DNA of 40,000 nucleotides from an uncultured Roseibium sp. (GTDB lineage: Bacteria; Pseudomonadota; Alphaproteobacteria; Rhizobiales; Stappiaceae), in NCBI RefSeq assembly GCF_963675985.2, contig NZ_CAXXUC010000002.1, positions 3,054,285-3,094,284 of the forward strand. The letters run 5' to 3'. A program made the position numbers and the translations under genes. The notes under the pieces are model-generated. The model searched no databases. It was given only the letters and a program-made list of their open reading frames with translations, and was not told the origin of the DNA. This document shows, piece by piece, positions 11,876-29,971 of the stretch; the first letter of the stretch is position 1; each line of letters begins with the position of its first letter.

Positions 11876-11950
11876 GCTGGCGTCCCCGTTTGCTTGTTGG
11901 CAGTTACGAAGACTCAAGCCTATGTGTAAGTATTTTCACTAGCGATAGGC

Positions 11951-12028: not shown

Positions 12029-12811
12029 CTACGTTGCCGTTTCCTGCCAGCCGAGCAACCTGGAAATGCGCTTGGCTGTCCGAACCACGGACTCACGCAC
12101 CGGGCCGTGGATCTCCGCCAGGTGCTGTTCGGAGATCGGTGCGGTGACATTGATGCCGGCGGCAACGCGCCCGGTGATGTCGTGAATGGGCGCTGCGACC
12201 GAGGCAATACCCGCTTCGAAATTGCCGGCATGCACGATCGCTTCCGCGCCATGATCTGCTTTCGCCTGGGAGAGGACCTCGGTCATGCTGATGGCACCGC
12301 GCACAAGCGAGGCGTTGTCGCTGCGGAACATGCTGACGAGGCTGTCGGTGGACAGATCCGCCAGCATCACGCGCCCGATGGCGGTGTTTCGGGCAGGAAG
12401 CCGGCTACCGACATGGACAATGGACATGTCCGCATATTTGGCAGGAATCCGAAGCACGTAGAGAACCGAGGTGCCGTCCAGCACCCCCATATGGGCGGAC
12501 CAGTTCAGTTCGTCGCGCAGGCGCTCCAGTTCCGGCTGGGCGATCTCCACGATCTCGCGCGTGGCCAGATAACCGTAGCTGAGCCTCAGGATACCGGGAC
12601 CGACCGCATAGGTGTTGGTGCGCTGGTCGTGGATCAGGCATCCCATCTCTGCTAGTGTGTAGACCGTACGGAACGCTGCGGAGCGCGTGATCCCCAGACG
12701 TTCGGATATGTCTTTCAGGGAAAGGTTCGGTGTTTCCGGGGTAAAACACTGCAACGCCTTCAATCCGCGCACGAGGCCCGGGACCAGGTATCGATCCTCG
12801 TCAGCCGCCAT
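12029..12811 (-). CDS. IclR family transcriptional regulator
   Basis: 260 aa. N-terminal wHTH (LSLKDISERLGITRSAAFRTVYTLAEMG) followed by a C-terminal effector-domain-sized region. Confidence 0.9.
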   Translation of the reverse strand: MAADEDRYLVPGLVRGLKALQCFTPETPNLSLKDISERLGITRSAAFRTVYTLAEMGCLIHDQRTNTYAVGPGILRLSYGYLATREIVEIAQPELERLRDELNWSAHMGVLDGTSVLYVLRIPAKYADMSIVHVGSRLPARNTAIGRVMLADLSTDSLVSMFRSDNASLVRGAISMTEVLSQAKADHGAEAIVHAGNFEAGIASVAAPIHDITGRVAAGINVTAPISEQHLAEIHGPVRESVVRTAKRISRLLGWQETAT

Positions 12812-12849
12812 GTTCTCTCATCTTCCTGTTCGCCGAAGTGAAATCGGTT

Positions 12850-12917
12850 TGCGTTTCACCAGTAAAACGCAGCCTCACCCGTAAAACAAGATGCCCCTAG
12901 AGTTGATCCATATCAAC
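12850..12917. promoter_or_regulatory. candidate operators between the iclR gene and the bicupin gene
   Basis: Inverted repeat TGCGTTT-N8-AAACGCA (12850-12871) shares its half-site with the 11951-11988 region. A second inverted repeat, GTTGAT-N4-ATCAAC, lies at 12902-12917. Confidence 0.4.
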
Positions 12918-12942
12918 CGCGTATGAGGACGGAGACGCTGTC

Positions 12943-13890
12943 ATGAACATTGAGAACCAGGAATTCAAAACGCTTCAAGAGGCTCTGAAGGCCAATACCG
13001 GCCGCTTTGTCGACAAGCGCTTCGACTGGGAAGCCTTCCCGTCGAACATCGGTTTTCCCGACCTTTCCCGCGCCCAGATGCGTTACATTGGCGCCGGTGG
13101 CTCGCCGAAGGTCGGCGACAACACGACCCTTAAGCCGGATCACTTCACCCTGTCCCTGATCTACAAGGAGCCGGGCAAATACGCCGCCTGCCACAGCCAT
13201 GAGATCGAGGAAAGTTTCCTGATCATCGACGGCAGCCTGATCGTCGGCTGGGAAAAGGACGGCGAAGTGGTCGAAGTCAACCTCGGCCCGAAGGACATGA
13301 TCCTGAACGCCCGCGAAATCGGCCACGGTTTCCGTGTCGACGGCGTCGAGCCGGTTTTGATGTCGATTTCCGTCGACGTCGGCAAGCCGCTGCCGCCGGT
13401 CTACCACTACCACCCGAAGGAGCATGCGCCGGAACTGGCCCGCAGCTTCGGTGCCGAACCGGGCAAGACCATGCCGTTCGACCCGAACGGATCCCATCCC
13501 CTGCAGAAGCTGATGGGAAAATACGTTGCCCGTCACAATGAACTGGAAACGATCTGGGACGATGCCGGCTTCACCCGCAAGGTCTACTGCGGCCCCGGAG
13601 GCGTGGAGACCGACACCTGCCGGAAGGAAATGCTCGGTATTCCGTCGCGGGTCGGCGTCAAGCCGTTCACGCGGGACGTGGAAGACGCTTTCCTGGTGCT
13701 TGAAGGCTCCCTGACCGTCGGGTGGGAAGAGAACGGCGAAACCACTGAAGTCGAACTCGGACCGCGCGACCTTGTGAAGACCCCGGCCGGCCGCAAGCAC
13801 TGGTTCCGCAACAACAGCGCCACGCCTGCAACCGTCTGGTATGTGGTGGGCTCCGCCGTGCCGGAAACGGTCAAGTTCGAAAAGGCCTGA
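12943..13890 (+). CDS. bicupin (two cupin domains) protein, possible metal-dependent dioxygenase
   Basis: 315 aa. The N-terminal cupin has HSHEIEESFLIIDG (HxH...E) plus a downstream GH. The C-terminal repeat RDVEDAFLVLEG lacks the His pair. GGACGGAG ribosome-binding site upstream. Confidence 0.75.
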   Translation: MNIENQEFKTLQEALKANTGRFVDKRFDWEAFPSNIGFPDLSRAQMRYIGAGGSPKVGDNTTLKPDHFTLSLIYKEPGKYAACHSHEIEESFLIIDGSLIVGWEKDGEVVEVNLGPKDMILNAREIGHGFRVDGVEPVLMSISVDVGKPLPPVYHYHPKEHAPELARSFGAEPGKTMPFDPNGSHPLQKLMGKYVARHNELETIWDDAGFTRKVYCGPGGVETDTCRKEMLGIPSRVGVKPFTRDVEDAFLVLEGSLTVGWEENGETTEVELGPRDLVKTPAGRKHWFRNNSATPATVWYVVGSAVPETVKFEKA

Positions 13891-13918
13891 CAGCTCCGGA
13901 TTCGAAGCTGACTAGACG

Positions 13919-13974
13919 ATGAAAGGGGCGGCTGCCCGACGGCATGGATTGCCCGAGCGGCCGCCCCTTTTCAT
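13919..13974 (+). terminator. stem-loop after the bicupin gene, possible intrinsic terminator
   Basis: Perfect 11-bp arms AAAGGGGCGGC (13922-13932) / GCCGCCCCTTT (13960-13970), followed by T. The 27-nt loop is large, which lowers confidence. Confidence 0.45.
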
Positions 13975-14064
13975 GAGATGAAGGATCTCTTTTGCACACA
14001 GCTTGCGAGAAGGCCTCCTTCGTCACCGAGGTCCCCTGATATCGAGAGTTACGTAGTAATCCGG

Positions 14065-14109
14065 TTGACGGGCACGCCACAAACGATAATAATTGAACTT
14101 AATGTTCAA
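14065..14109 (+). promoter_or_regulatory. sigma70-like promoter with an overlapping palindrome, upstream of the flavin monooxygenase gene
   Basis: TTGACG (14065-14070), 17-nt spacer, AATAAT (14088-14093). Inverted repeat TTGAAC-N5-GTTCAA at 14093-14109. The start codon is at 14134. Confidence 0.35.
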
Positions 14110-14133
14110 ATAAGAACTTTCAAAGGGATTCAA

Positions 14134-15276
14134 ATGGCCGTTTTGAAGATTGGAATCTGCGGTGGCGGTGTCGGTGGTTTGTGTGCGGCGATCGCGCTGA
14201 CCGACATGGGCCATAACGTGACGGTTTACGAACAGGCTTCCGAATTCGGCCGCGTGGGCGCCGATATCAACTTGACCCCCAATGCCGTCCATGCCCTCGA
14301 CCGGCTTGGGGTCGGCGAACGGTTGCGCGAAACCGCGGCACGTCCCACCCACCGCATCAGCCGCCAGTGGGACACCGGCGAGGAAACCTCGCGCCTGCCG
14401 ATGAGCACGGCCGCCGAGGAACGCTACGGCTCGCCGCAGTTGACCATCCACCGGGCCGACCTTCTCAACGCCCTGACTGACCGCCTTCCGGCCAACCGCA
14501 TCCTCTTCGGCTGCAAGGTGACCGGTATCGAACAGGACGACACAAAGGCGACCATCCGCTTTGCGGACGGCAGCCATGCGGACTTTGACGCGGTCATCGG
14601 TGCCGATGGCATCCACTCCGTCGTCCGGACCGCTCTGTTCGGCAAGGACGACCCGAAGTTCACCGGCCTGGTGTCCTACCGCGCGGTGTTCCCACGCTCC
14701 AAGGGCGCTGGTATTCCGGATCTCGATGCCTTCACGAAATGGTGGGGCCCGACCAGCGACTATCAGATCGTCACCTTCCCGCTCACCCGAGGCGAGGAGA
14801 TCTTCGTCTTCGCGACCACGCCTCAGACCGACTGGACCGAGGAAGGCTGGACCCTGCCGGGCGACATCAACGAACTGCGTGCGGTCTACAAGGACTTCCA
14901 CCCCCAGGCCCGCGCCCTGCTCGACGCCTGCGAGACCGTAACCCGGTCTGCGCTGCATGTGCGCACGCCGATGGAACACTGGTCCAAGGGCCGGATCACC
15001 ATTCTCGGCGACGCCGCCCATCCCATGGTGCCATTCATGGCCCAGGGCGCCTGCATGGCGATCGAGGACGCTGTCGTTCTGGCACGGTCCCTTGACGGCA
15101 GATCTTCCGCAGAGGTGCCGGCTGCACTCGAAACCTACGAGACCGCGCGGAAACCCCGTACCGCCCATGTCCAGGAAAGCTCGCTTGCCAATGAATGGCT
15201 GAAAGACCGAGGCAATGCCGACTGGGTCTACGGCTACCAAGCATGGGAAGTGGGTCTGGACGACCTGGCTGCGTGA
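14134..15276 (+). CDS. class A FAD-dependent aromatic monooxygenase (salicylate hydroxylase / 3-hydroxybenzoate 6-hydroxylase-like)
   Basis: Start moved to the ATG at 14134 (MAVLKIGICGGGVGGLCAAIAL, GxGxxG). ADGIHSVVR motif. GDAAHPMVPFMAQGACMAIEDA motif. Confidence 0.85.
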   Translation: MAVLKIGICGGGVGGLCAAIALTDMGHNVTVYEQASEFGRVGADINLTPNAVHALDRLGVGERLRETAARPTHRISRQWDTGEETSRLPMSTAAEERYGSPQLTIHRADLLNALTDRLPANRILFGCKVTGIEQDDTKATIRFADGSHADFDAVIGADGIHSVVRTALFGKDDPKFTGLVSYRAVFPRSKGAGIPDLDAFTKWWGPTSDYQIVTFPLTRGEEIFVFATTPQTDWTEEGWTLPGDINELRAVYKDFHPQARALLDACETVTRSALHVRTPMEHWSKGRITILGDAAHPMVPFMAQGACMAIEDAVVLARSLDGRSSAEVPAALETYETARKPRTAHVQESSLANEWLKDRGNADWVYGYQAWEVGLDDLAA

Positions 15277-15292
15277 CGAAACGGCGATTGAG

Positions 15293-15337
15293 AAGCTGAT
15301 CAATATGTGACATATCGTTCATATTAGATCAGCTTTT
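15293..15337 (+). terminator. imperfect 15-bp palindrome between the monooxygenase gene and the second iclR gene (terminator and/or operator)
   Basis: AAGCTGATCAATATG (15293-15307) pairs with CATATTAGATCAGCTT (15320-15335) with one bulged base, followed by TT. Confidence 0.35.
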
Positions 15338-15391
15338 CTGAGATCATCCCGATTTCGTATAAAAGTAAATAACCTGGATCAGGGGGGCAGC

Positions 15392-16210
15392 ATGACGTTG
15401 GCATCCGACAAGGACGCGGAACAGACAGGCTATTCGGTCCCGCCGGTTCTGCGGGCAATCGCACTGCTGCGCTATATCGGAGCCGGCAACCGCTGCCGCA
15501 ACATCTCTTCGGCCTCCAAGGAACTGGGCATCAACCGCACCACGTTGATCCGCCTCATTCATACGCTGGAAGACGAGCGCATGATCGAGGAGATCGACGA
15601 AGGCGCCGGCTACCGGCTCGGAACCGGGTTGATCGCGCTGGCTTCCGAGGCCATCGCCGACCGGGACGTCGTCCAGGTCGCCCGGCCGATCCTTGCCGAC
15701 CTGGCAGCCGAACTCAACCTGTCGGCACATCTGGGCATTCTCGACGGGCTCGAGATCGTCTACCTGGCCCGGGAAACGCCGAACTCCTATCTGGTCAGCA
15801 ACGTGCGCGTGGGCACCCGTTTACCGGCGCATGCGACCACCATCGGACGCATTCTGCTGTCCGAGCTCGCGCCCGAGGCGTTGCACAAGCTTTATGACCA
15901 CGTGACGCTCGATGCCTATACGGACAAGACCAGAACCTCCCTGGAGGAACTGGAAGCGCAACTCGCCGAGGACCGCAAAGGCAGTATCGCCTGGAGTGTC
16001 GCCAACTTCGAGCCCGGGATCGGTTCCTGCGCAGTCGCCGTTTACGACGATCGCGGCCGTGCGGTCGGCGGCATTAACGTGACCGGGCAGGACAGCGTGT
16101 TCACGCCTGGAACTTACGAGGCGAATGTGATCGAACGCGCCATAAAGTCCGCCGCGAACCGGATTTCCGAGGGGCTCGGCCACACCTCGCGCACCGCTCG
16201 CAGAGCCTAA
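15392..16210 (+). CDS. IclR family transcriptional regulator
   Basis: 272 aa. wHTH (ISSASKELGINRTTLIRLIHTLEDERM). AGGGGGG ribosome-binding site before the ATG. Confidence 0.9.
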   Translation: MTLASDKDAEQTGYSVPPVLRAIALLRYIGAGNRCRNISSASKELGINRTTLIRLIHTLEDERMIEEIDEGAGYRLGTGLIALASEAIADRDVVQVARPILADLAAELNLSAHLGILDGLEIVYLARETPNSYLVSNVRVGTRLPAHATTIGRILLSELAPEALHKLYDHVTLDAYTDKTRTSLEELEAQLAEDRKGSIAWSVANFEPGIGSCAVAVYDDRGRAVGGINVTGQDSVFTPGTYEANVIERAIKSAANRISEGLGHTSRTARRA

Positions 16211-16222
16211 TTTCAGAAATAA

Positions 16223-16822
16223 TCAGTCGTAGGTATAACCGAAGGACAGGCCGAACCGGTCCGCCGTCAGCGGTCGGTTGCCGGTCAGGGCCCGGCGGAG
16301 CCACAAGCGACCGTGGATCTGGGTGTCGGTGAAATCGGCGTTTTCCGGAAGCCGGACACCATCAAACCAAAGCCCACCCAACCACTCGGCGCCGGAGAAA
16401 TCCGCCTGTTTGCGTAAGTTCGCGCCTTCCAGCGAAAAGTTGCCATAGGCGACGACGGCTGAAAAATCCGCGTTGTCCTCAAAAACGGCACCATTGAAGT
16501 TGCCGATGCCGCGGAATTCACACCCGGCAAAGGACACTGTGCGGGAGAAGGTTACCTCTTCGAACCGCGCGTCGTTGCGAAACGAAGCGCCCGCGAAGGA
16601 AACCTCGCCGCCGAAGACCGATCCGCCGAACCAGGACAGGCCCTGGAACACCGCATCGCGCGCATCGATGCCGTCGGGAAACCGCGCATTCCGGAAATCG
16701 ACGCCAGCCAACTCAAGGCCGGCGAGATCAAGCCTGCCTTCGCAGTCGACCCCGGATAGATCGATGCGCTCGCCGTGATGCCACGGCGTCGACAGGCGGT
16801 CGCGGATTTCCCCCGCCAACAT
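16223..16822 (-). CDS. pentapeptide-repeat protein
   Basis: Tandem A(D/N)LxX-like pentapeptides run through most of the protein (e.g. GASFRNDARFEEVTFSRTVSFAGCEFRGIGNFNGAVFEDNADFS). Start placed at the ATG 16822-16820, which overlaps the flavodoxin stop as TAATG. Confidence 0.85.
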   Translation of the reverse strand: MLAGEIRDRLSTPWHHGERIDLSGVDCEGRLDLAGLELAGVDFRNARFPDGIDARDAVFQGLSWFGGSVFGGEVSFAGASFRNDARFEEVTFSRTVSFAGCEFRGIGNFNGAVFEDNADFSAVVAYGNFSLEGANLRKQADFSGAEWLGGLWFDGVRLPENADFTDTQIHGRLWLRRALTGNRPLTADRFGLSFGYTYD

Positions 16823-17289
16823 TACGCGGCCTCTGAGTTCTGTTTTTCTGCGAGAGCGACCATTTCCTCCGCCCAAGGCAGAGCCAGATCATCCGCCATG
16901 TCGGCGCCGGACGCATCATGGGTCAGCCGCTCGCCAAGCTGGGTCGCGCCGTGTTTGGTGAGCAGATCGGCAATATGCTTGCTGCCGTGGTTGAAGGTCT
17001 CGTCATATTCGGAATCGCCGAGACCGAAGACGGAGAAACAGACGCCGGAGAGATCCGCGTCGGACTTGGCCATGGCTTCCTCGAAGGGTTTCGCCGAGGC
17101 AGGCAGTTCGCCGTCGCCGTAGGTCGAACAGACAACCAGGTAGAACCCGCCTGCCTCGAAGTCGTCCGGCGCGAAATCGGACAGGTTGACGGCTTCGGCG
17201 TCGTGGTCGCCTTCCAGGCTGGAGACGATGTCCTCCGCCAGCATCTCGGCATTCCCGGTTTCGGTACCGTAGAGAACAGTGATCTTCAT
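16822..17289 (-). CDS. flavodoxin
   Basis: 155 aa. N-terminal FMN phosphate-binding signature KITVLYGTETGNAEMLAEDI. ATGA overlap with the upstream reductase gene. Confidence 0.9.
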   Translation of the reverse strand: MKITVLYGTETGNAEMLAEDIVSSLEGDHDAEAVNLSDFAPDDFEAGGFYLVVCSTYGDGELPASAKPFEEAMAKSDADLSGVCFSVFGLGDSEYDETFNHGSKHIADLLTKHGATQLGERLTHDASGADMADDLALPWAEEMVALAEKQNSEAA

Positions 17290-18542
17290 CCGTTGATCTC
17301 CTCAGATTTTTGCAGGGCCAAGGCCAGCATGTCCTGCCGGCAGGCGATCTTCCGGCGGGTCCTGTCCGCCGGCAGGTCGGCCGTTTCCGCCTCATCGATG
17401 CGCTTCCAGCCGGCGTAATCGACCATATTTTCGCGGCCAACAATCAGACTATCCCGACCGCCTTTTCCGGTATCCGTACCGGCGGCGTCAAGATCCGCCA
17501 ATATACGGGTGGCGAGCGCCTGAGCGTCGGCGCGGTTTTCAGGGATCGTGCCTCGCGGGCCGCGGCGGAACCAGCCGGTCGCATAGAGCCCCGGAGCGAG
17601 CGCGCCGGCCTCCACGTCTTCTGCGGCGGCGACCAGATCGTCGCGCCCCAGAGGGCCGGCAGCGGCAAATCCGACGGCTGTGATGAGACTGTCGCAGGGG
17701 CGTTCGACTGTATCGCCGCTTGCATTCCGGAAGCGGACACCGGTCACCTTGCCGCCTTCACCGGTAATCTCCGCCGGTGTCAGGCCGAAGCGGAAGGTCA
17801 GACGGCGCGGACCGGTCCCATGGCCGTCAACAGTGGCCAAGGCGTCCAGCTTCTTCTGACCGTCGCCGCTCTGAGCCGTTCCCATTTCCTCGACGCGAAT
17901 GGTCACGCCGGAAAGCTTGGAAAGTTCCTTGATCATCACCGGATCGAACTTGGCGGCTTCGGCCACAGAGCGACCGACGATATCGATCGTCTCGATATCG
18001 TTGGCGGCAAGCCAGGCGCTCGGTCCGGCTCCGAAATCGGATCCGGCCAGTTCCTCGGGCGTTTTGCCGAGGATGCGCAACAGGTCGATGGCAACATTGC
18101 CGTTGCCCATGATGACGACCTTTTTGCCGAGCGTTGGCAGGGTTTCAGCATCTGGATGCTCGTAAAGGGCGCGGGTCAGATCACCGGCGCGGATCACGCC
18201 GTCCAGATCCTCACCCGGAATACCAAGCTGCCTGTCGCCCGGAAGACCGGCTGCCAACACGACGACATCGTAGCAAGCCCGTAGGTCGTCCAGGGACACA
18301 TCGTCGCCGATGGAAAGGTTGCCGATGAAGGTTGCGCCCATGCGTTCGAACACCCGCTCGAACTGGCGCGTGATCCCCTTGGTGCCCTGGTGATCGGCGG
18401 CGACGCCGTAGCGCACCAGACCGTAAGGCACCGGCAGACGGTCGATCAGGTCAACCTTGAGTTCCGAATTGGCCTTGAGCAGGGCCTGCGCCAGGAAGCA
18501 CCCGGATGGCCCGGCTCCGATGATGGCGACGGATGCACTCAT
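17286..18542 (-). CDS. FAD/NAD(P)H oxidoreductase, adrenodoxin-reductase / FprA-like
   Basis: 418 aa. Two dinucleotide folds: AIIGAGPSGCF and VVIMGNGNVAIDLLRIL. ATGA overlap with the aldehyde dehydrogenase gene. Confidence 0.8.
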   Translation of the reverse strand: MSASVAIIGAGPSGCFLAQALLKANSELKVDLIDRLPVPYGLVRYGVAADHQGTKGITRQFERVFERMGATFIGNLSIGDDVSLDDLRACYDVVVLAAGLPGDRQLGIPGEDLDGVIRAGDLTRALYEHPDAETLPTLGKKVVIMGNGNVAIDLLRILGKTPEELAGSDFGAGPSAWLAANDIETIDIVGRSVAEAAKFDPVMIKELSKLSGVTIRVEEMGTAQSGDGQKKLDALATVDGHGTGPRRLTFRFGLTPAEITGEGGKVTGVRFRNASGDTVERPCDSLITAVGFAAAGPLGRDDLVAAAEDVEAGALAPGLYATGWFRRGPRGTIPENRADAQALATRILADLDAAGTDTGKGGRDSLIVGRENMVDYAGWKRIDEAETADLPADRTRRKIACRQDMLALALQKSEEING

Positions 18543-20035
18543 GCGGCGCCCTCCATGGCCGGCAGGGCCCAGGGATGCGGTTTACCGGAGAGATCGGTAT
18601 AGATCGACTTCTGCGCCATATAGGCGCGCATGCCTTCCCTGCCCTTCTCCCGGCCGATACCGCTGTCCTTTTCGCCGCCGAACGGGGTCGAGATGGAGAA
18701 TTGCTTGTAGGTGTTGACCCAGACCGTGCCGGTGCTGATCGCCCGGCCCACGCGCCAGGCCTTCGGGAAATCCTTTGTCCAGAGCCCCAGCGCAAGACCG
18801 TAGCTGTTGTCGTTGGACTGGGCGATGACGTCCTCTTCGCTGTCGAAGGGCAGCACCGCCAGAACCGGGCCGAACACCTCTTCGCGGCACAAGCGCGCGG
18901 TGTTGGGCAGGCCCGCGATGATCGTCGGCAGGTAATAGGCGCCCTTGGCGTAATCCGCGCCGTCCGGGGCCATTCCGCCGCAGAGGATCTCGCCGCCATC
19001 GGCGCGGGCGGCCTCCACGTGTTCGATGACGCTCTCACGATGATCGAAGTGGATCAGCGGCGCCACCTGGGTATCGGCCTCGAACGGATTGCCGACCTTG
19101 AGGCGCTTGGTGACCTCCACCAGTCGGGACACGAACCGGTCATAGATCGGCCGTTCCACGAACAGGCGCGCACCGGCGATGCAGCTCTGGCCGGTGGAGG
19201 AAAAGATTCCGAACAGGACACCTGCGATGGCCTGGTCGATATCGGCATCGGCAAAGACGATGGTCGGCGATTTGCCCCCCAGTTCGAGGGAAACCGGCAT
19301 CAGCTTTTCCGCCGCCTGACGGGCGAGCTGGCGGCCGGTGGTCGTCCCGCCGGTGAAGCTGACCCGCGCGATATCGGGATGGTCGACCAGCAGGTTGCCG
19401 ATCTCGCGGCCCGCCCCCGGCAGTACGGAGAACAGGCCTTTCGGCAGGCCTGCCGCTTCCACGATCCGCGCCAGTTCCAGGCTGACCAGCGGCGACCAGG
19501 AGGCCGGCTTGAGCAGCACCGCGTTGCCGGCGGCAAGGGCCGGCGCCACCTTCTGGGCATCCGAGGCGATCGGCGAATTCCACGGCGTGATCGCACCAAC
19601 GAGCCCGAGCGGCTCGTAGACCGACAGGGTCATTGCATCGCCGCGCTGAACGGTCAGCGCCTCGTCGGAGGTTTCCAGGACCGCGCCGAAATAGCGGAAG
19701 GTTCCCGCCGCCGACATCGCCAGCGCCCTGGTTTCCCTTAAGGTTTTGCCGGTATCGCGGGTCTGGATATAGGAAATCCGGTCCGCATTCGCTTCGATGC
19801 CGTCGGCAATGGCATAGAGATATTTCGCCCGCTCATGGGCCTTCAGATTACGCCAGGCGGGATCGGCCTGTGCTGCGCGGGCGCGCTCGATGGCGCGCAA
19901 GCCGTCGTCTTGCGACGCTCCGCGCAACACCCGGTTGACTGAACCGTCAGCGGGGAAGATCGAGGTGATTTCCGGGCCCGTGCCCACTTCCCACTCGCCT
20001 GCGACGAAAAGCTTGCCTTCAGGAAGGTCGATCAT
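18539..20035 (-). CDS. NAD(P)-dependent aldehyde dehydrogenase
   Basis: 498 aa. Catalytic Glu region LELGGKSP. Catalytic Cys region SSTGQSCIAGARLFV. Confidence 0.95.
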   Translation of the reverse strand: MIDLPEGKLFVAGEWEVGTGPEITSIFPADGSVNRVLRGASQDDGLRAIERARAAQADPAWRNLKAHERAKYLYAIADGIEANADRISYIQTRDTGKTLRETRALAMSAAGTFRYFGAVLETSDEALTVQRGDAMTLSVYEPLGLVGAITPWNSPIASDAQKVAPALAAGNAVLLKPASWSPLVSLELARIVEAAGLPKGLFSVLPGAGREIGNLLVDHPDIARVSFTGGTTTGRQLARQAAEKLMPVSLELGGKSPTIVFADADIDQAIAGVLFGIFSSTGQSCIAGARLFVERPIYDRFVSRLVEVTKRLKVGNPFEADTQVAPLIHFDHRESVIEHVEAARADGGEILCGGMAPDGADYAKGAYYLPTIIAGLPNTARLCREEVFGPVLAVLPFDSEEDVIAQSNDNSYGLALGLWTKDFPKAWRVGRAISTGTVWVNTYKQFSISTPFGGEKDSGIGREKGREGMRAYMAQKSIYTDLSGKPHPWALPAMEGAA

Positions 20036-20045
20036 CCGGGTCTCC

Positions 20046-20870
20046 TTAAATCGCGACTGGAGCGACGCGGTTCCGCAACTCGCGCAGAACGCTGTAAACG
20101 GTCGTCACGGACGTCTTGATATTGCCCGGCGACGGCAGGTTCTCGATGCGGATCGACGTGCGTGCGACGCCTGAAACCGCAGTGAATTCATGGGTGTTGC
20201 CGGACGCGGCCGGATCGGCGATCAGCTCGACCTTCGTGTCGTCGAAGCCGAGACCGGCCAGCGCGATGGTGGCCGCCACGTTGGCGTTCTTCGGGTATTG
20301 CGCGGCGGCATCTCGGGCCGTGCCGGTAAAGAACACGGTTGCTTCCTTGAGACCGTCGAGATCGACCGCGGTTTCAGCGGGCGTCCCGGCCCAGGCCGCA
20401 GGCGGCTTGCACCCCTGATAGGTGACCGACGTCAGTCCCGCCGGGCGCAAGGCGGCCAGCAGATCGATCCCGCCGACCGCACCAGCCGGCAGCACGATCC
20501 GGGCACCGCCTTCCTCGGCCGCCGCGCGAAGCTCCGCTTCCAGCTCCCGGTGCGCAAAGGCTCCGATCGAGACGAGCACCACATCAACACCCGCTTTCAG
20601 GATCGTCGGCACATGGCTGACGACGGCCTGATGGCCGGCACATTCAACGACAAAGTCGGGCTTGGCCGCCAGCAGCTCTTCGGCGCTGGAGACAGCAGCG
20701 AAGCTGCATCCCAGGCCTCCATGAGAGGCTTCAAGATCCTTGCCCAATTCGTCCGTTTTTCCCGGCAGACCGAGAACCGTGAGTGCTTCCAGCCTGATTT
20801 CCGGGGTCTCCGCAATCAGTCGCAGCAGCGTTCCGGCGATATTGCCGTATCCGATCAGTCCGAGGCGCAT
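20046..20870 (-). CDS. aspartate dehydrogenase-like (NadX/DUF108 family) amino acid dehydrogenase
   Basis: 274 aa. N-terminal Rossmann motif MRLGLIGYGNIAG. Size and layout are typical of the family. Confidence 0.7.
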   Translation of the reverse strand: MRLGLIGYGNIAGTLLRLIAETPEIRLEALTVLGLPGKTDELGKDLEASHGGLGCSFAAVSSAEELLAAKPDFVVECAGHQAVVSHVPTILKAGVDVVLVSIGAFAHRELEAELRAAAEEGGARIVLPAGAVGGIDLLAALRPAGLTSVTYQGCKPPAAWAGTPAETAVDLDGLKEATVFFTGTARDAAAQYPKNANVAATIALAGLGFDDTKVELIADPAASGNTHEFTAVSGVARTSIRIENLPSPGNIKTSVTTVYSVLRELRNRVAPVAI

Positions 20871-20873
20871 GGT

Positions 20874-22547
20874 TCAGGTCCTGTTCCCCGCGGCACCGGC
20901 GGGCGGACCGGAAAAGGCCTGGGCGAAGGGACCGATGGCGCACATGTCGACTTCGATCACCTTGGGCCCGTCGACGGAAACGGCTTCCTCGAAGGCGTCC
21001 GCAAATTCGTCCACCGAGCCGACAACCCGGTGCGGCATGCCGATGGAAGCGCAGAAGGTTGCAAAGTCCGGGGTCGACAGCGCCGAATAATGCCGGCGGG
21101 AGTCATACTGCGCATCCTGGATATTCTGGATGACGCCGTAGGCCTTGTCGTTCATCAGCACGTAGACCAGACCGGCCTTCTCTTCGACGGCCGTGATCAT
21201 CTCGGCAATGCCGAGCATGGTGCCGCCGTCGCCGAGCAGGGTCACCGCCTTGGCCTCGGGCGAGGCGATAGCCGCGCCGATGCCCATCGCCACACCCTGG
21301 CCGATACCGCCGCCAAGGGCGTGAACGCCGTGCCGGGGTTCGGCGATCCGCACATAGCGGTTGCCGAAGGTCGAGTTGGAGATGGTGACGTCCCGGACCC
21401 AGGGATGCCTGCCGCCGGAGACCCGCACGGCCAGTTCGTCCGCGATCACCCGGTAGGGACCGAGAACATCGCGCATGCGGCCTTCAGCCGTTGCCCGCGC
21501 CGCTGCGATATCAAAGGCCTGCTCCGGATCGACATCGAGCTTTTCCGGCAACAGTTCGAGGATCCGGCCCAGTGTGTCGGCGGCATCGCCATGGGCGAAG
21601 ATCTCGACAGGGTAGTTGCGGCCGCCCTGGGTGGCATCCGCATCGATCTGAACCAGGGGCGACGGCAGAACCATCGCGTTGTTATGGGTCTCGTTGCCAC
21701 GCAGCCGCGATCCGACGACGATCATCATGTCGGACTTACGGTAAAGCTCCTGGGCCTCGGGTGTCATGTTGAAGGCGCCGAGATTGCCCGGCTGCTCTTC
21801 GGAGACGATGGCACGGCCGTTGGTGCTGGTAACGATGCCGATGCCGCGGCGGTGGAGTTCGCTTGCTTCCTTGGAGGCGCCGCGGGCACCGCCGCCAAGC
21901 CACAGCAGCGGCCGCTTGGCGGACTTGAGCCTCGCGGCGATTTCCTCGACGACCGCATCAGGCGCACGCGGTGTCATCGGCACCGGCGCATGGATCGCTC
22001 CGGTCTCACAGGCCTGGGTGCGCTGAACGTCGACCGGGATCTCCAGGCTGACCGGGCCCGTCGGAGCGCTCAGGGCGGAGGAGACGGCGGCGGTCAGGGT
22101 GCCGACGGCATTGCGCGCGTCCCACATGCGGAAATAGGCCTTGGAGACACCTTTGAGCATGTCCGGCTGGCGCGGAACGTCGTGAATGGCGGCGCGGTCC
22201 CGGTCGGCGAATTCGACATCGACCTGCGTGGTGATGTGCAGGACCCGCGACCCGGCTGTCAGGGCTTCGGCCTGCGCACCGGCCGCGTTGCCGGCGGCCG
22301 TGCCTGTTGAGGTGATGACCACGCCGAGGCTCTCGGAGACCCGGGCATAGGCATCGGCCATGTTCATGGCGCCGGCCTCGCCACGCGCCGGCACGAAGCG
22401 GATCCGCTCCTGGCGGGCGATCGCGTCCAGGATCGGCATATTGTGGATCGAGATGACCCCGAACACGGTGGTCACACCGATCTCGGCGAGGTAGCGGGCG
22501 ATGAAGTCCCCGACCGTCTCAGTGATCGTGATCTTTTCCATTTTCAT
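20874..22547 (-). CDS. thiamine diphosphate-dependent enzyme (acetolactate synthase / 2-oxoacid decarboxylase superfamily)
   Basis: Start moved to the ATG at 22547 (MKMEKITITETVGDF) with a GAGGGAA ribosome-binding site. ThDP motif GDGGTMLG...VYVLMNDKAYG. Confidence 0.9.
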   Translation of the reverse strand: MKMEKITITETVGDFIARYLAEIGVTTVFGVISIHNMPILDAIARQERIRFVPARGEAGAMNMADAYARVSESLGVVITSTGTAAGNAAGAQAEALTAGSRVLHITTQVDVEFADRDRAAIHDVPRQPDMLKGVSKAYFRMWDARNAVGTLTAAVSSALSAPTGPVSLEIPVDVQRTQACETGAIHAPVPMTPRAPDAVVEEIAARLKSAKRPLLWLGGGARGASKEASELHRRGIGIVTSTNGRAIVSEEQPGNLGAFNMTPEAQELYRKSDMMIVVGSRLRGNETHNNAMVLPSPLVQIDADATQGGRNYPVEIFAHGDAADTLGRILELLPEKLDVDPEQAFDIAAARATAEGRMRDVLGPYRVIADELAVRVSGGRHPWVRDVTISNSTFGNRYVRIAEPRHGVHALGGGIGQGVAMGIGAAIASPEAKAVTLLGDGGTMLGIAEMITAVEEKAGLVYVLMNDKAYGVIQNIQDAQYDSRRHYSALSTPDFATFCASIGMPHRVVGSVDEFADAFEEAVSVDGPKVIEVDMCAIGPFAQAFSGPPAGAAGNRT

Positions 22548-22557
22548 TTTTGTTCCC

Positions 22558-23346
22558 TCAAATATGCCGGGAGACGCCGCCCGAGACCTCGATCTGTGCG
22601 CCGGTGATGTAGCTGGCGGCAGGCGAGCCCAGGAAGCAGATCGCCGCGGCGGCCTCCTCCGGCTGCCCCAGCCGTCCCAGCGGGATGCGTTTTTTCGAAG
22701 CGAGATCGGCGTACCAGTCTTCGCGGCTCTGGCTCTTGTCCTCACGGGCTTCGAACCGGCGCTGCCACTGGCCGGAATCGACCAGGCCGATCAGGATGGA
22801 ATTGACCCGCACCTTCGGCGCCAGTTCCACGCTCAGCGACTTGGCCAGGTTCTGCACGCCGGCCCGGGCGGAAGACGTGCACACCATGTGCGCTTCCGGC
22901 TGGTAGGCGAGCAGCGAATTGACCACGACGATGGCGCCGTTCGCTTCCGCCAGCATCGCCTTGAAGGCGCGCACCGGGCGGACCTGGCTGAACACCTTCA
23001 ATTCGTACTCGGCACGCCAGTCGTCATCCGACGTTTCGGCGAAGGTCGATACCCTGCCCTGGCCGGCGTTGTTGACCAGCAGATCGCACCGGCCGGACCG
23101 GTCCTGAACATCGACGGCGAAGGCCTGGACATCGGCCTCGTCGAGCACGTTCAGCGCCTTGGCAAACACCCGACCCTCACCGAATTCGGCGGTCAGTTCC
23201 GAAGCGACCTTCTGCAGTCGCTCCTCATTGCGGGCGCAGATCGCCACGTTCGCACCGCTTGCCAGAAGCAGGCGCGTCGTCGCCAATCCGATGCCTGAGG
23301 ATCCGCCGGTCACCACAGCGACCCGGCCGTCATAGCCGTAATGCAT
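22558..23346 (-). CDS. short-chain dehydrogenase/reductase family protein with a non-canonical active site
   Basis: 262 aa. Contains TGGSSGIG and NNAG. At the spacing expected for YxxxK after the catalytic Ser (VVNS), the sequence reads TSSAR. Confidence 0.85.
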   Translation of the reverse strand: MHYGYDGRVAVVTGGSSGIGLATTRLLLASGANVAICARNEERLQKVASELTAEFGEGRVFAKALNVLDEADVQAFAVDVQDRSGRCDLLVNNAGQGRVSTFAETSDDDWRAEYELKVFSQVRPVRAFKAMLAEANGAIVVVNSLLAYQPEAHMVCTSSARAGVQNLAKSLSVELAPKVRVNSILIGLVDSGQWQRRFEAREDKSQSREDWYADLASKKRIPLGRLGQPEEAAAAICFLGSPAASYITGAQIEVSGGVSRHI

Positions 23347-24260
23347 CAGTTCTTCCTCAGTTCCGGGAAGCCGGGATCGGGACGGCCCTGCATGACCGCG
23401 CGCTGCGCCGGGGTCGGCGGCCCGGCAGTCATCCAGCGGTCCATGGCTTCCGGATCGTTGCGCGACCAGACCTTGGCCTCGTGGGTCGCCTCGTCGATCT
23501 GTTGCAGTTCGGAGGTGAACTCGATCACGAAACCGGACGGCGAAACGAAATAGGCGAAGGGGTTGTTGCCCGGCCCGTGCCGGCCCGGTCCCCAGGTCGG
23601 AACATGACCCTTCTGCTTCATCCGGCCGATGCCGCGCATGAACTCGTCCAGCGTCGGCATTTCGAAGGCCACGTGATTGACGCTCGGGTAATGGGCGCGC
23701 ACCAGGGCAATCGAATGGTGATCCGTGTTGCAGCGGAGAAAGACCATCTGGTCGGCGGAATAGTCGGACACCCGGAAGCCGAGCACGTTGCAGTACCAGT
23801 CCTGAACGCCTTCCATGTCCGGTGTATTGAGCACCACATGACTGACCTTGCGCGGCATCGCCCAGTCGTCCTTCGGCTCCAGCTCCTTGGCCTCGGTGCG
23901 GAAACGCAGGCGGCGGTTGTCCGGGTCGAGCACCTCGAAACCGTAGCCGCCGCAGAAATCGGGGAACGGCGCCGGATCGCTAACAACAGCCGCGCCCGCT
24001 GCCTTCACCTGGGCATGCAGGGCGTCCATCGAGGCCCGGTCGGGCATGGAAAAGTGGACATATTCGATGCCGTAGACCGGTGCGTCCTTGAGACCGTAGA
24101 GAAACGGCTCGGTGCCCGTGCCACGCAGAAGAACTTCGTCGTTCCCCTTATGCGACAGGTCGAGGCCCCACATGTCTTCGTAAAACGGCAGCGTCTCGGT
24201 AATACCGGGTCCGCGCATCATGATGCCGCGCAGGGCGCCGACGCGTATCGGATCAGACAT
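23346..24260 (-). CDS. type I two-domain extradiol ring-cleavage dioxygenase (VOC superfamily)
   Basis: 304 aa. Candidate Fe ligands in SHVVLN, NHVAFE and IEFTSE. Its stop overlaps the next start as TGATG. Confidence 0.85.
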   Translation of the reverse strand: MSDPIRVGALRGIMMRGPGITETLPFYEDMWGLDLSHKGNDEVLLRGTGTEPFLYGLKDAPVYGIEYVHFSMPDRASMDALHAQVKAAGAAVVSDPAPFPDFCGGYGFEVLDPDNRRLRFRTEAKELEPKDDWAMPRKVSHVVLNTPDMEGVQDWYCNVLGFRVSDYSADQMVFLRCNTDHHSIALVRAHYPSVNHVAFEMPTLDEFMRGIGRMKQKGHVPTWGPGRHGPGNNPFAYFVSPSGFVIEFTSELQQIDEATHEAKVWSRNDPEAMDRWMTAGPPTPAQRAVMQGRPDPGFPELRKN

Positions 24261-24284
24261 TTTCCAGTCTCCTGTTCCGGCCCG

Positions 24285-25100
24285 TCATTGTGCGGGCGAC
24301 GTCATTGAAGCCAGCGCCAGGGCAAAAGCCTCAGGCGCCTGCTGATAAAGGGCGTGTCCCGCCGACGGCACTTCCGTGAGCGCACCGCGTGCGGACTGTG
24401 GGATGGCAGCATGGGTCTTGCGGGCGGCCTCGGGCGGCGTCACCACGTCTTCCGCACCGACAATCACGTCTGTCGGCACGGTCAGCCGGGCAGCATCGTC
24501 AAGCAGACGGCCGGACGCCAGCATGCGCACCGCCATGTCGTAGCCGGGGCTGGAGACGCGGGACATCGCATCGAAAACGCGCGCCACCAGATCCGGATTT
24601 GTCTCCGGTTCGAACACCAGCCGGGACGCACGGGCTTCGGCGAATTTTTCAGCCCCAAGGGCTGCCAGATCATCCAGCCGCTTCTGTGCCGCAGCACTCA
24701 AGGCGGACCCCGGCGTCACGCCGTGACCGAGCGCGGGCGATGCCAGTAGCAGATGCGCCACGCGGTCCGGGTAACCGGCCGCAAAGGCGGCCCCGATCAG
24801 GGTGCCGAGCGAATGGCCAACAAGCAGCACCCGATCCAGTCCGAGACGGTCCAGAAGGCCTTTCAGGGCCTCGGCATAGTCGGCGGCCTGAGGCCAATCC
24901 TTTGCCAGAGGCTCCGATCCGCCATAGCCTGGCGCGTTCCAGACAATCACCCGGAAGGTCGGGGCGATGTGATCGAGAAAGGGCGCGAACGACATCGCAT
25001 TGCTGCCGATGCCGTGAAGCAGCACCAGAACCGGACCTTCGCCCTGCGCTGGCCGTTCCAGATATTCGATACCGCCGGAAATGTGGGTCTGGACAGTCAT
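24285..25100 (-). CDS. alpha/beta hydrolase (meta-cleavage-product hydrolase-like)
   Basis: 271 aa. HG oxyanion motif VLVLLHGIG. Nucleophile elbow GHSLG. Located between the SDR and extradiol dioxygenase genes. Confidence 0.8.
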   Translation of the reverse strand: MTVQTHISGGIEYLERPAQGEGPVLVLLHGIGSNAMSFAPFLDHIAPTFRVIVWNAPGYGGSEPLAKDWPQAADYAEALKGLLDRLGLDRVLLVGHSLGTLIGAAFAAGYPDRVAHLLLASPALGHGVTPGSALSAAAQKRLDDLAALGAEKFAEARASRLVFEPETNPDLVARVFDAMSRVSSPGYDMAVRMLASGRLLDDAARLTVPTDVIVGAEDVVTPPEAARKTHAAIPQSARGALTEVPSAGHALYQQAPEAFALALASMTSPAQ

Positions 25101-25107
25101 GGGCGGC

Positions 25108-28875: not shown

Positions 28876-28908
28876 TACAGAGATCCCCTGCTGGATATCA
28901 AAAATGAT

Positions 28909-29679: not shown

Positions 29680-29971
29680 AGCCGTTTTCCAGGTAAGCGG
29701 CGTCGAAATCCACGTTGATGGCGGTCAGCTCTTCGGACAGAAGCGCTTCGGTCCAGTCGGTCTTGCCGGAGATCGGCGCGACGACCTTGCGGTCCGTCAA
29801 GGCAGCGGCAACAGCGGCGTAGTCGCCGGCACCGGCCCCATAGATTTCCATCAGCGCTTCGGCGAGTTTTTGCTCAACCTCGGTCAATTCCCGTCCCCGG
29901 GACTGATGGGCAAGCGCCGGACGGCTGGTGTCGAACGCTTTTTGCGATAGGCGGTCTTTGAACAGATCCAT
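29669..29971 (-). CDS. small conserved-looking protein of unknown function; first gene of the long operon
   Basis: 100-aa soluble acidic protein. It overlaps the ATPase start by 11 nt. No motif I can assign with confidence. Confidence 0.6.
   Translation of the reverse strand: MDLFKDRLSQKAFDTSRPALAHQSRGRELTEVEQKLAEALMEIYGAGAGDYAAVAAALTDRKVVAPISGKTDWTEALLSEELTAINVDFDAAYLENGYGA

What the first reader, a model, noticed from the sequence alone, without database searches (positions are those of the whole stretch)
16822..18542. A flavodoxin and an adrenodoxin-reductase-type flavoprotein are the only redox partners encoded with an alpha-only Rieske oxygenase
**What the sequence shows.** The co-directional block 16223-29971 contains a Rieske oxygenase (25851-26915; CxH-x16-CxxH plus DPMHGCYLH).
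- It contains no [2Fe-2S] or [3Fe-4S] ferredoxin ORF.
- It contains no phthalate-dioxygenase-reductase or FNR-fusion gene.
- It contains no Rieske-type ferredoxin.
- The only electron-transfer genes are a 155-aa flavodoxin (TGNAE signature) and a 418-aa two-dinucleotide-fold reductase (GAGPSG and GNGNVAID). These are joined to each other and to the preceding ALDH gene by ATGA overlaps.

**Background.** The established Rieske oxygenase classes use a PDR-type reductase, or a ferredoxin plus a reductase.

**Inference.** An FMN flavodoxin as the direct donor would be an unusual electron-transfer chain. Alternatively the pair could serve the orphan P450 at 36000-37340, which has no adjacent ferredoxin.
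Basis: partly seen in the sequence, partly recalled or inferred. Interest (0 to 1): 0.7.

Follow-up and report, generated by a model that had tools for sequence, protein, structure and literature searches.

The report
Flavodoxin-based electron supply for Rieske oxygenases
A catabolic operon of a marine Roseibium-like bacterium pairs a Rieske oxygenase with an iron-free electron chain (a FAD reductase plus an FMN flavodoxin) so far known only from P450 systems. The same two-gene pair sits beside two unrelated Rieske oxygenase systems in dozens of genomes, which points to an undescribed type of Rieske redox chain.

Summary
Genes 17286-18542 (a 418-aa reductase of the FprA/adrenodoxin-reductase type) and 16822-17289 (a 155-aa flavodoxin resembling cindoxin) close a 15-gene minus-strand operon. 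They overlap each other, and the reductase overlaps the preceding ALDH gene, by ATGA. The operon holds one alpha-only Rieske/VanA_C oxygenase (25851-26915). It has no ferredoxin, PDR/VanB-type reductase or Rieske ferredoxin, and neither does the rest of the 40-kb window.

Comparative genomics supports a functional link:
- Where the Rieske orthologue is at least 73% identical and enough flank is available, 22 of 23 genomes keep the reductase and flavodoxin at the operon end.
- In a Phaeobacter rearrangement the order becomes reductase-flavodoxin-HTH_62-Rieske.
- A paralogous reductase-flavodoxin pair lies next to a different, split LigXa-type Rieske oxygenase in 10 of 10 sampled loci. No Fe-S partner is encoded there either.
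- The closest characterised relatives are cindoxin (41% identical), a cindoxin-reductase-like gene and XplB. All of these serve P450s.

The nearby P450 (36000-37340) is never syntenic with the operon, so that alternative is rejected.

More distant operon versions lack the pair, and a 45% paralogue in Zhengella carries a VanB-type reductase instead. Direct electron transfer from flavodoxin to the Rieske cluster is inferred, not shown. I file this as a new variant of a known kind.

The parts
17286..18542 (-). NAD(P)H-dependent FAD reductase of the adrenodoxin-reductase/FprA type (418 aa). It belongs with XplB and cindoxin-reductase-like flavodoxin reductases.
   Evidence: Pyr_redox_2, GAGPSG and GNGNVAID. 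Full-length match to FprA 1lqt (E 8e-49) and AdR 1cjc. 43% identical to the XplB locus of Gordonia pGKT2 and 37-38% to a reductase in a Klebsiella reductase-flavodoxin-P450 cluster. ATGA overlaps on both sides.
16822..17289 (-). Short-chain FMN flavodoxin resembling cindoxin and MioC (155 aa, pI about 4.0). Proposed one-electron shuttle to the Rieske cluster.
   Evidence: PF00258, E 9e-29. Best solved relative is cindoxin 4oxx (E 3e-24; 41% identity over 139 residues). The YGTETGNAE, TYG(D/E)GE and FGLGDS loops are conserved.
25851..26915 (-). Alpha-only Rieske non-haem iron oxygenase (Rieske plus VanA_C domains). Probable start is the ATG at 26894. Proposed terminal electron acceptor.
   Evidence: Pfam. 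CPH-x16-CRYH and D-x2-H-x4-H motifs. Orthologues are 74-97% identical in many marine Alphaproteobacteria. Nearest solved structures are alpha-only enzymes: KshA, SxtT, CarAa and phthalate dioxygenase.
16223..16822 (-). Pentapeptide-repeat protein (199 aa), the last gene of the operon. It co-travels with the Rieske gene. Role unknown.
   Evidence: Pentapeptide_3, E 3e-27. TAATG overlap with the flavodoxin stop. It stays next to Rieske/SDR1 in the mini-clusters and in L093.
29669..29971 (-). HTH_62 small protein (100 aa, no cysteine), the first gene of the operon. It is almost always just upstream of the transporter or Rieske genes. Role unknown.
   Evidence: PF20552. Synteny.
27056..29679 (-). 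ABC importer: ATPase 28909-29679, NMT1/SsuA-type binding protein 27901-28875, permease 27056-27904.
   Evidence: Pfam. Weak SsuA/TauA-family matches below the NCBIfam cut-offs. Syntenic.
18539..25851 (-). Seven catabolic enzymes between the Rieske gene and the reductase: SDR1 25108-25851, alpha/beta hydrolase 24285-25100, extradiol dioxygenase 23346-24260, SDR2 22558-23346, TPP enzyme 20874-~22547, AspDH-like 20046-20870, ALDH 18539-20035.
   Evidence: Pfam and NCBIfam. Same order in more than 20 genomes. None of these enzyme families needs an external one-electron donor for catalysis (established knowledge of the families).
12029..16210 (.). Co-conserved neighbours, probably part of the same pathway or regulon: IclR 12029-12811(-), bicupin 12943-13890(+), FAD decarboxylative-hydroxylase-like monooxygenase 13978-15276(+), IclR 15392-16210(+).
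   Evidence: Pfam. The cupin is 67-86% identical and the monooxygenase 61-75% identical in most operon-bearing loci. The monooxygenase's best solved relative is 6-hydroxynicotinate 3-monooxygenase.

Best explanation
The two genes encode a dedicated, Fe-S-free electron-transfer chain for the operon's Rieske oxygenase. The proposed path is: NAD(P)H, then FAD in the AdR/FprA-type reductase, then FMN in the cindoxin-like flavodoxin (cycling between semiquinone and hydroquinone), then the Rieske [2Fe-2S] cluster of the alpha-only VanA_C-type oxygenase, then the mononuclear Fe(II) site. That site activates O2 to hydroxylate or demethylate a still unidentified (hetero)aromatic substrate brought in by the operon's ABC importer.

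What is shown: gene content, motifs, homology, translational coupling and conserved co-occurrence.

What is inferred by homology: the reductase-to-flavodoxin step, from cindoxin reductase/cindoxin and XplB/XplA.

What is inferred from gene association only: the flavodoxin-to-Rieske step.

The module behaves as a mobile two-gene cassette in Alphaproteobacteria. It occupies the role that a VanB/PDR-type reductase has in a distant paralogue. It also serves a second, split LigXa-type Rieske oxygenase.
For: 1. Operon structure. ATGA and TAATG overlaps link ALDH, reductase, flavodoxin and the pentapeptide gene, and the 15 genes are tightly packed.

2. The Rieske oxygenase is the only operon product whose family needs an external one-electron donor. 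No Fe-S partner is encoded in the window.

3. Conservation. 22 of 23 loci with a Rieske orthologue of at least 73% identity and sufficient flank keep the reductase and flavodoxin. These loci span Rhodobacterales and Hyphomicrobiales genera including Roseitalea, Paenochrobactrum, Mesorhizobium, Nitratireductor, Maritimibacter, Mameliella, Pacificibacter, Pseudodonghicola and Rhodovulum. Plasmids of Nitratireductor, Pseudosulfitobacter and Paracoccus also carry reductase homologues; the full operon was confirmed in Paracoccus, while for the other two only the ALDH-reductase junction was seen.

4. Rearrangement. In Phaeobacter sp. J2-8 the order is ALDH-reductase-flavodoxin-HTH_62-Rieske-pentapeptide, so the pair is still adjacent to the oxygenase.

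5. Independent second context. A pair with 50% reductase identity lies divergently next to a small Rieske protein, a LigXa_C oxygenase and a hypothetical gene in 10 of 10 loci. This holds despite varied surroundings, and no ferredoxin, PDR-type reductase or P450 motif occurs in those flanks.

6. Trees. In rough NJ trees the reductases and flavodoxins associated with Rieske oxygenases group apart from the XplB and cindoxin-reductase-like (P450) sequences.

7. Homology. The characterised relatives of both proteins form exactly such a chain: NADPH to cindoxin reductase (FAD) to cindoxin (FMN) to P450cin (PMC9687028). XplB is the cognate flavodoxin reductase of XplA (PMC8081977).

8. A 45% Rieske paralogue in three Zhengella loci, lying next to the same SDR/hydrolase/extradiol genes, is followed by a VanB/PDR-type reductase. 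A reductase function therefore belongs beside this oxygenase family.
Against: - There is no biochemical evidence.
- Operon versions with 55-73% Rieske identity lack the pair (L033, L034, L037), as does L027 at 73%. They encode no partner within 10 kb, so the oxygenase can evidently be served by proteins encoded elsewhere.
- Roseomonas mucosa (L047) has the reductase but no flavodoxin.
- E. coli flavodoxin plus flavodoxin reductase failed to support a different Rieske oxygenase (CAO) in vitro, whereas VanB, TsaB and DdmA/B worked (PMC9615114).
- Whole genomes could not be searched for unlinked ferredoxins or PDR-type reductases.
Confidence: 0.68

Rival explanations
1. The pair supplies electrons to the Rieske oxygenase only indirectly. 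The AdR-type reductase and/or the flavodoxin would reduce an unlinked Fe-S ferredoxin, which is the true donor. Alternatively, the reductase works with a ferredoxin encoded elsewhere and the flavodoxin is an iron-limitation back-up.
For: FprA/AdR-type enzymes classically reduce ferredoxins (molecule names). Roseomonas has the reductase without a flavodoxin, and several operon versions have neither. [quoted passage not shown]
Against: No ferredoxin is encoded in the window, in 22 orthologous loci or in 10 loci of the second context. The flavodoxin is conserved with the reductase in 32 of 33 pair-bearing loci. The closest characterised reductases (XplB, cindoxin reductase) act on flavodoxins.
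Confidence: 0.12
2. The pair is a repair system of the XylT type. It would re-reduce the oxidised Fe(III) of the operon's extradiol dioxygenase (or other Fe(II) enzymes) rather than feed the Rieske oxygenase catalytically.
For: The operon has an extradiol dioxygenase (23346-24260). Ferredoxin-mediated reactivation of catechol 2,3-dioxygenase by XylT is established knowledge.
Against: The core of the second context (Rieske protein, LigXa_C oxygenase, reductase, flavodoxin) has no extradiol dioxygenase in most loci. Operon versions with the extradiol dioxygenase but without the pair exist. XylT-type proteins are [2Fe-2S] ferredoxins without a dedicated reductase.
Confidence: 0.07
3. The pair serves the orphan cytochrome P450 at 36000-37340, as cindoxin and cindoxin reductase serve P450cin.
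For: The flavodoxin's best solved relative is cindoxin, and the reductase resembles XplB and cindoxin-reductase-like enzymes. The P450 has no adjacent ferredoxin.
Against: The P450 lies about 17.5 kb from the pair, in a separate block with MMPL, polyprenyl synthase and FAD-enzyme genes. It is of the CYP107 type. It was not detected in the roughly 9-10 kb of upstream flank of any of the 80 operon-related loci, although that flank would reach only about two-thirds of a P450 gene placed as in the window, while the pair stays with the Rieske operon. No P450 haem motif occurs in the loci of the second context.
Confidence: 0.03
4. The pair is a housekeeping flavodoxin/reductase system (for example general low-iron redox supply) that sits at the operon end without a specific link to it.
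For: Flavodoxins commonly replace ferredoxins under iron limitation (established knowledge). The NCBIfam matches to MioC and FldA models are below their cut-offs.
Against: Translational coupling to the ALDH gene. Location on catabolic plasmids. Absence from related operon versions, and strict co-occurrence with two Rieske oxygenase systems. This distribution is patchy and accessory, not that of a housekeeping gene.
Confidence: 0.03

Closest known systems
P450cin redox system of Citrobacter braakii: cindoxin reductase (CinB, FAD) plus cindoxin (CinC, FMN) plus CYP176A1
   Same: A separate AdR-like FAD reductase and a small FMN flavodoxin are encoded side by side. The window flavodoxin is 41% identical to cindoxin, with the same FMN loops. 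A Klebsiella plasmid shows reductase-flavodoxin-P450 with 38% reductase identity. The chain NADPH to FAD to FMN to acceptor is described in PMC9687028.
   Different: The terminal acceptor there is a P450 haem. Here no P450 is linked, and the associated oxygenase is a Rieske/non-haem iron enzyme.
XplB/XplA RDX-degrading system (Rhodococcus, Gordonia)
   Same: XplB is an AdR-like flavodoxin reductase. The XplB locus on Gordonia pGKT2 is 43% identical to the window reductase.
   Different: The flavodoxin is fused to the P450 (a 552-aa protein), and the acceptor is haem.
Two-component (class IA) alpha-only Rieske oxygenases with a PDR/VanB-type reductase (VanAB, phthalate dioxygenase, TsaMB)
   Same: The oxygenase architecture is the same: Rieske plus VanA_C, with no beta subunit. 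A flavin is the entry point for NAD(P)H. A 45% paralogue in Zhengella has exactly this arrangement.
   Different: The PDR-type reductase is one polypeptide with an FNR-like flavin domain and a plant-type [2Fe-2S] domain. Here there are two polypeptides, an AdR fold and no Fe-S centre before the Rieske cluster.
Three-component alpha-only Rieske oxygenases (LigXa/LigXc/LigXd, DdmABC, CarAa/Ac/Ad)
   Same: A separate reductase and a small diffusible one-electron shuttle serve the oxygenase. The oxygenase in the second context carries the LigXa_C domain.
   Different: The shuttle in all described systems is an Fe-S ferredoxin (PMC12445004). Here it is an FMN flavodoxin.
M. tuberculosis FprA and mitochondrial adrenodoxin reductase
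   Same: Same fold and the same two dinucleotide-binding motifs. These are the best solved matches.
   Different: Their known partners are Fe-S ferredoxins or adrenodoxin. The window enzyme is about 40 residues shorter and is paired with a flavodoxin.

Membership tests
Rieske non-haem iron oxygenase, alpha-only (VanA/phthalate-type) | Rieske [2Fe-2S] ligands CxH-x15-17-CxxH | tested here: met
   CPHRGAPLSYGEIHDGDIGCRYH. PF00355, E 2e-23.
Rieske non-haem iron oxygenase, alpha-only (VanA/phthalate-type) | Catalytic domain with mononuclear-iron motif D-x2-H-x4-H | tested here: met
   NLADPMHGCYLH. PF19112 VanA_C, E 2e-15. The carboxylate ligand was not mapped.
Rieske non-haem iron oxygenase, alpha-only (VanA/phthalate-type) | No beta (Ring_hydroxyl_B) subunit | tested here: met
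   No such domain in any operon ORF.
Class IA two-component Rieske oxygenase system | Adjacent PDR/VanB-type reductase (FNR-like domain plus plant-type [2Fe-2S]) | tested here: not met
   Absent from the window. Motif scans of the pair-lacking loci and of L093 found none; the 22 pair-bearing orthologous loci were compared only by tblastn with the operon proteins and were not themselves scanned for Fe-S motifs. Present only beside a 45% paralogue.
Three-component Rieske oxygenase system | Small Fe-S ferredoxin ([2Fe-2S] plant/Rieske type or [3Fe-4S]) as shuttle | tested here: not met
   No ferredoxin motif in six frames of the window or in related loci.
AdR/FprA-type flavodoxin/ferredoxin reductase (XplB / cindoxin reductase group) | Two Rossmann dinucleotide motifs and full-length homology to FprA/AdR | tested here: met
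   GAGPSG and GNGNVAID. 1lqt E 8e-49 over residues 5-410. 43% and 38% identity to the XplB and cindoxin-reductase-like loci.
AdR/FprA-type flavodoxin/ferredoxin reductase (XplB / cindoxin reductase group) | FAD binding, and NAD(P)H-dependent reduction of the adjacent flavodoxin | not testable with these tools
   Needs purified proteins. Only gene adjacency and homology are available.
Short-chain flavodoxin (cindoxin/MioC-like) | Flavodoxin fold with the FMN phosphate loop T-x-T-G-x-x-E and the 50s and 90s loops | tested here: met
   PF00258 covers residues 5-138. YGTETGNAE, STYGDGE and FGLGDSEY align with cindoxin.
P450cin-type (class III) P450 redox system | A P450 encoded with, and served by, the reductase and flavodoxin | tested here: not met
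   The nearest P450 is about 17.5 kb away. It is of the CYP107 type and was not found in the upstream flank of any of 80 related loci.

The most novel reading that the evidence does not exclude
Rieske oxygenases have a further, undescribed class of electron-transfer chain with no Fe-S centre upstream of the Rieske cluster. It consists of an AdR/FprA-type FAD reductase plus a cindoxin-like FMN flavodoxin.

The pair spreads as a two-gene cassette among marine and soil Alphaproteobacteria. It serves at least two unrelated oxygenases:
- a VanA_C-type alpha-only enzyme;
- a split LigXa-type enzyme whose Rieske domain is a separate polypeptide.

It may be an iron-sparing replacement for VanB/PDR-type reductases.
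Probability: 0.55. Interest if true: 0.8.

Novelty: new variant of a known kind. Interest (0 to 1): 0.7.

Why it matters
All current classifications of Rieske oxygenases (Batie classes, Kweon types) and the 2025 review define the systems by an Fe-S-containing reductase or an Fe-S ferredoxin shuttle. A natural flavodoxin-dependent system would have three consequences:
- It would add a new class to those classifications.
- It would give biocatalysis a simple, soluble redox module without Fe-S clusters for alpha-only Rieske oxygenases.
- It would suggest that marine bacteria lower the iron cost of aromatic catabolism in the same way phytoplankton swap ferredoxin for flavodoxin.

The idea is directly testable, because the proteins are small and soluble and several culturable strains carry the operon.

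Tried and rejected
- The P450 alternative was rejected on synteny and P450 type.
- The promoter and terminator scan of 15300-30600 gave counts no higher than shuffled sequence, so it says nothing about operon boundaries.
- Nine full-text searches combined flavodoxin, cindoxin, FprA or adrenodoxin reductase with Rieske terms, or combined the operon's gene set. None found a paper describing this system or operon.
- Substrate identification failed.
  - NCBIfam gave only generic or below-cut-off names. SDR1 resembles pyridoxal 4-dehydrogenase at 205 bits against a cut-off of 325. The hydrolase resembles PcaD. The TPP enzyme and SDR2 match the uncharacterised models PRK07064 and PRK07062.
  - The bicupin has no solved relative.
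  - The extradiol dioxygenase matches only an uncharacterised structure (3b59) and, weakly, homoprotocatechuate dioxygenase.
- Motif hits for ferredoxins in related loci were inspected and dismissed as Arg/Pro/Ala/Gly-rich off-frame or antisense ORFs.
- I considered the HTH_62 protein as a hidden redox carrier and rejected the idea because it has no cysteine.
- Structure prediction and docking were not attempted. Only single chains can be modelled here, and that would not test the interaction.
Full report
**1. Checking the observation**

The window has about 62% G+C. It comes from a Roseibium-like alphaproteobacterium: the Rieske protein is 96-97% identical, and the reductase 90-98% identical, to Roseibium sequences.

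On the minus strand, 15 genes run from 29971 to 16223:

| Order | Gene product | Coordinates |
|---|---|---|
| 1 | HTH_62 small protein | 29669-29971 |
| 2 | ABC ATPase | 28909-29679 |
| 3 | NMT1/SsuA-type binding protein | 27901-28875 |
| 4 | ABC permease | 27056-27904 |
| 5 | Rieske/VanA_C oxygenase | 25851-26915 |
| 6 | SDR1 | 25108-25851 |
| 7 | alpha/beta hydrolase | 24285-25100 |
| 8 | extradiol dioxygenase | 23346-24260 |
| 9 | SDR2 | 22558-23346 |
| 10 | TPP enzyme | 20874-~22547 |
| 11 | AspDH-like protein | 20046-20870 |
| 12 | ALDH | 18539-20035 |
| 13 | AdR-type reductase | 17286-18542 |
| 14 | flavodoxin | 16822-17289 |
| 15 | pentapeptide-repeat protein | 16223-16822 |

So are the ATGA overlaps. 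The flavodoxin stop also overlaps the next start codon as TAATG.

No ORF of the block carries a ferredoxin, FNR-like or beta-subunit domain. A six-frame scan of the whole window for Fe-S cysteine motifs found only the Rieske oxygenase. The window does hold one other [2Fe-2S] protein, but it is the small subunit of a molybdenum hydroxylase at 1327-5035 and not a free ferredoxin.

**2. What the two proteins are**

The reductase aligns end to end with M. tuberculosis FprA (E 8e-49) and with adrenodoxin reductase.

A tblastn search of plasmids gave three groups of relatives:
- Alphaproteobacterial orthologues.
- At 43% identity, the gene preceding a 552-aa P450 on Gordonia pGKT2. This is the XplB/XplA arrangement.
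- At 37-38% identity, a gene in a reductase-flavodoxin-P450 cluster on Klebsiella and Enterobacter plasmids. This is a P450cin-type arrangement.

One public record even names a 67%-identical orthologue "cindoxin reductase".

The flavodoxin's best solved relative is cindoxin (E 3e-24; 41% identity; FMN loops conserved), followed by MioC.

The literature describes the chain NADPH to cindoxin reductase (FAD) to cindoxin (FMN) to P450cin (PMC9687028). It also describes XplB as the cognate flavodoxin reductase of XplA (PMC8081977). The reductase-to-flavodoxin step is therefore well supported by homology.

**3. Which enzyme the pair serves**

I fetched 80 loci around relatives of the Rieske protein from one-genome-per-species contigs. 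I then scored every operon protein against them.

- Where the Rieske orthologue is at least 73% identical and at least 1.8 kb is available beyond ALDH, 22 of 23 loci carry the reductase and flavodoxin in the same position. These loci come from many genera of Rhodobacterales and Hyphomicrobiales. One locus (L027) carries neither.
- The RefSeq annotation of a Paracoccus plasmid shows the same 15 genes.
- In Phaeobacter sp. J2-8 the operon is rearranged to ALDH-reductase-flavodoxin-HTH_62-Rieske-pentapeptide. The pair stays with the oxygenase.

A second, independent context settles the direction of the inference. A paralogous pair (50% reductase identity) lies divergently next to three genes: a 133-150-aa Rieske protein, a roughly 409-aa LigXa_C oxygenase and a small hypothetical protein. 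I found this in all 10 loci sampled:
- plasmids of Pseudooceanicola and Palleronia;
- genomes of Thalassovita, Pacificibacter, Salipiger and Tianweitania;
- a Phyllobacterium MAG and three metagenomic contigs, one of them from TARA.

The neighbours outside this five-gene core differ from locus to locus. None of these loci has a ferredoxin, PDR-type reductase or P450 motif.

Apart from generic IclR regulators and solute transporters, the only component shared by the two contexts is a Rieske protein with a non-haem iron oxygenase domain.

In rough NJ trees, the reductases and flavodoxins associated with Rieske oxygenases group apart from the XplB and cindoxin-reductase-like sequences.

**4. Limits and counter-evidence**

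- More distant versions of the operon (55-73% Rieske identity) lack the pair. They encode no credible redox partner within 10 kb.
- Roseomonas mucosa has the reductase only.
- Three Zhengella loci have a 45% Rieske paralogue beside the same SDR, hydrolase and extradiol genes. That paralogue is followed by a classical VanB/PDR-type reductase with RSYS, GGIGVTP and CxxGxCGxC motifs.

The oxygenase family can therefore be served in other ways. The pair looks like a lineage-specific solution that fills the place of a PDR-type reductase.

A heterologous flavodoxin system from E. coli did not drive another Rieske oxygenase, CAO, in vitro (PMC9615114). Compatibility is therefore not automatic.

Whole genomes could not be searched. 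A ferredoxin encoded elsewhere cannot be excluded.

**5. Rival explanations**

- *The P450 at 36000-37340.* It is of the CYP107 type and lies in a separate block with MMPL, polyprenyl synthase and FAD-enzyme genes. It was not found in the upstream flank of any of the 80 loci, although that flank (about 9-10 kb) would reach only the first two-thirds of a P450 gene placed as in the window.
- *XylT-like repair of the extradiol dioxygenase.* This does not explain the second context, which usually has no extradiol enzyme.
- *A housekeeping role.* This conflicts with the patchy, plasmid-borne, operon-coupled distribution of the pair.

**6. Comparison with what is known, and novelty**

[quoted passage not shown] It mentions flavodoxin only in its references on engineered P450 fusions (PMC12445004). 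None of the nine full-text searches retrieved a natural flavodoxin-dependent Rieske oxygenase or a description of this operon.

The module itself (AdR-like reductase plus cindoxin-like flavodoxin) is known from P450cin and XplA. Its association with Rieske oxygenases appears to be undescribed. I therefore rate the finding as a new variant of a known kind, supported by strong comparative evidence but by no biochemistry.

**7. Pathway context (secondary question)**

Four genes are co-conserved with the operon: a bicupin at 12943-13890, an FAD monooxygenase at 13978-15276 and two IclR regulators. The monooxygenase's best solved relative is 6-hydroxynicotinate 3-monooxygenase.

SDR1 is most similar to SDR-type pyridoxal 4-dehydrogenase, the hydrolase to enol-lactonases, and the ALDH to ring-fission semialdehyde dehydrogenases. 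All of these matches are below the family cut-offs.

The substrate is probably a hydroxylated or methylated (hetero)aromatic carboxylate, but it remains unidentified.

Noticed in passing
L082 11595-13756; L083 10961-13083; L087-L092, L094, L095 (about 5.0-7.9 kb in each): The second oxygenase looks like a split Rieske oxygenase. The ~409-aa 'alpha' subunit has only the LigXa_C catalytic domain, and its N-terminal ~100 residues lack the CxH/CxxH ligands. A separate 133-150-aa protein just upstream carries an alpha-subunit-type Rieske motif (CPHRGADLC.GR.E.NG.RCPFH). In the Palleronia plasmid this small gene is missing from the PLSDB feature table.
   Followed up: partly
window 29669-29971 and 16223-16822; L028-L043; L093 8765-10710: A 100-aa HTH_62 protein without cysteine and a pentapeptide-repeat protein co-travel with the Rieske gene. 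They form a mini-cluster of HTH_62, Rieske, SDR1 and pentapeptide in genomes whose locus lacks most of the operon. In Phaeobacter they moved together with the Rieske gene. Their roles (regulator? accessory subunit?) are unknown.
   Followed up: partly
window 12029-16210: A bicupin with no solved relative (67-86% identical across genera), a NicC-like decarboxylative FAD hydroxylase and two IclR regulators are syntenic with the Rieske operon in most loci. They probably belong to the same unidentified pathway.
   Followed up: partly
window 20046-23346: SDR2, the TPP enzyme and the AspDH-like protein match the NCBIfam models PRK07062, PRK07064 and PRK13303 above their cut-offs; the adjacent ALDH (18539-20035) matches only models below their cut-offs. 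From memory, these four resemble the uncharacterised P. aeruginosa PA3504-PA3507 cluster. They suggest an amino- or oxo-acid to aldehyde to acid segment of unknown substrate.
   Followed up: no
window 1327-5035 and 5041-8102: A three-subunit molybdenum hydroxylase (FAD subunit 1327-2160, [2Fe-2S] subunit 2157-2657, Mo subunit 2654-5035) is followed by a TRAP transporter. A TauE-type exporter (8176-8988) and a second NMT1-type ABC system (9283-11917) lie nearby. The whole window is an island of (hetero)aromatic or sulfonate catabolism.
   Followed up: no
L047 19029-20992 (Roseomonas mucosa): This version of the operon has the AdR-type reductase followed directly by the pentapeptide gene, with no flavodoxin. 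This implies a flavodoxin encoded elsewhere or a different acceptor for the reductase.
   Followed up: partly
L094 1724-4009 (Tianweitania sediminis): In the second context, a glutamine-synthetase-like gene and an arylamine N-acetyltransferase lie next to the split Rieske oxygenase. This hints that arylamines or gamma-glutamylated amines are its substrates.
   Followed up: no
window 20874-22745: The longest ORF of the TPP enzyme starts at a GTG and adds about 66 Arg/Ser/Pro-rich residues that overlap SDR2. The real start is almost certainly the ATG near 22547 (MKMEKITITE...), which gives about 557 aa, as in the homologues.
   Followed up: yes
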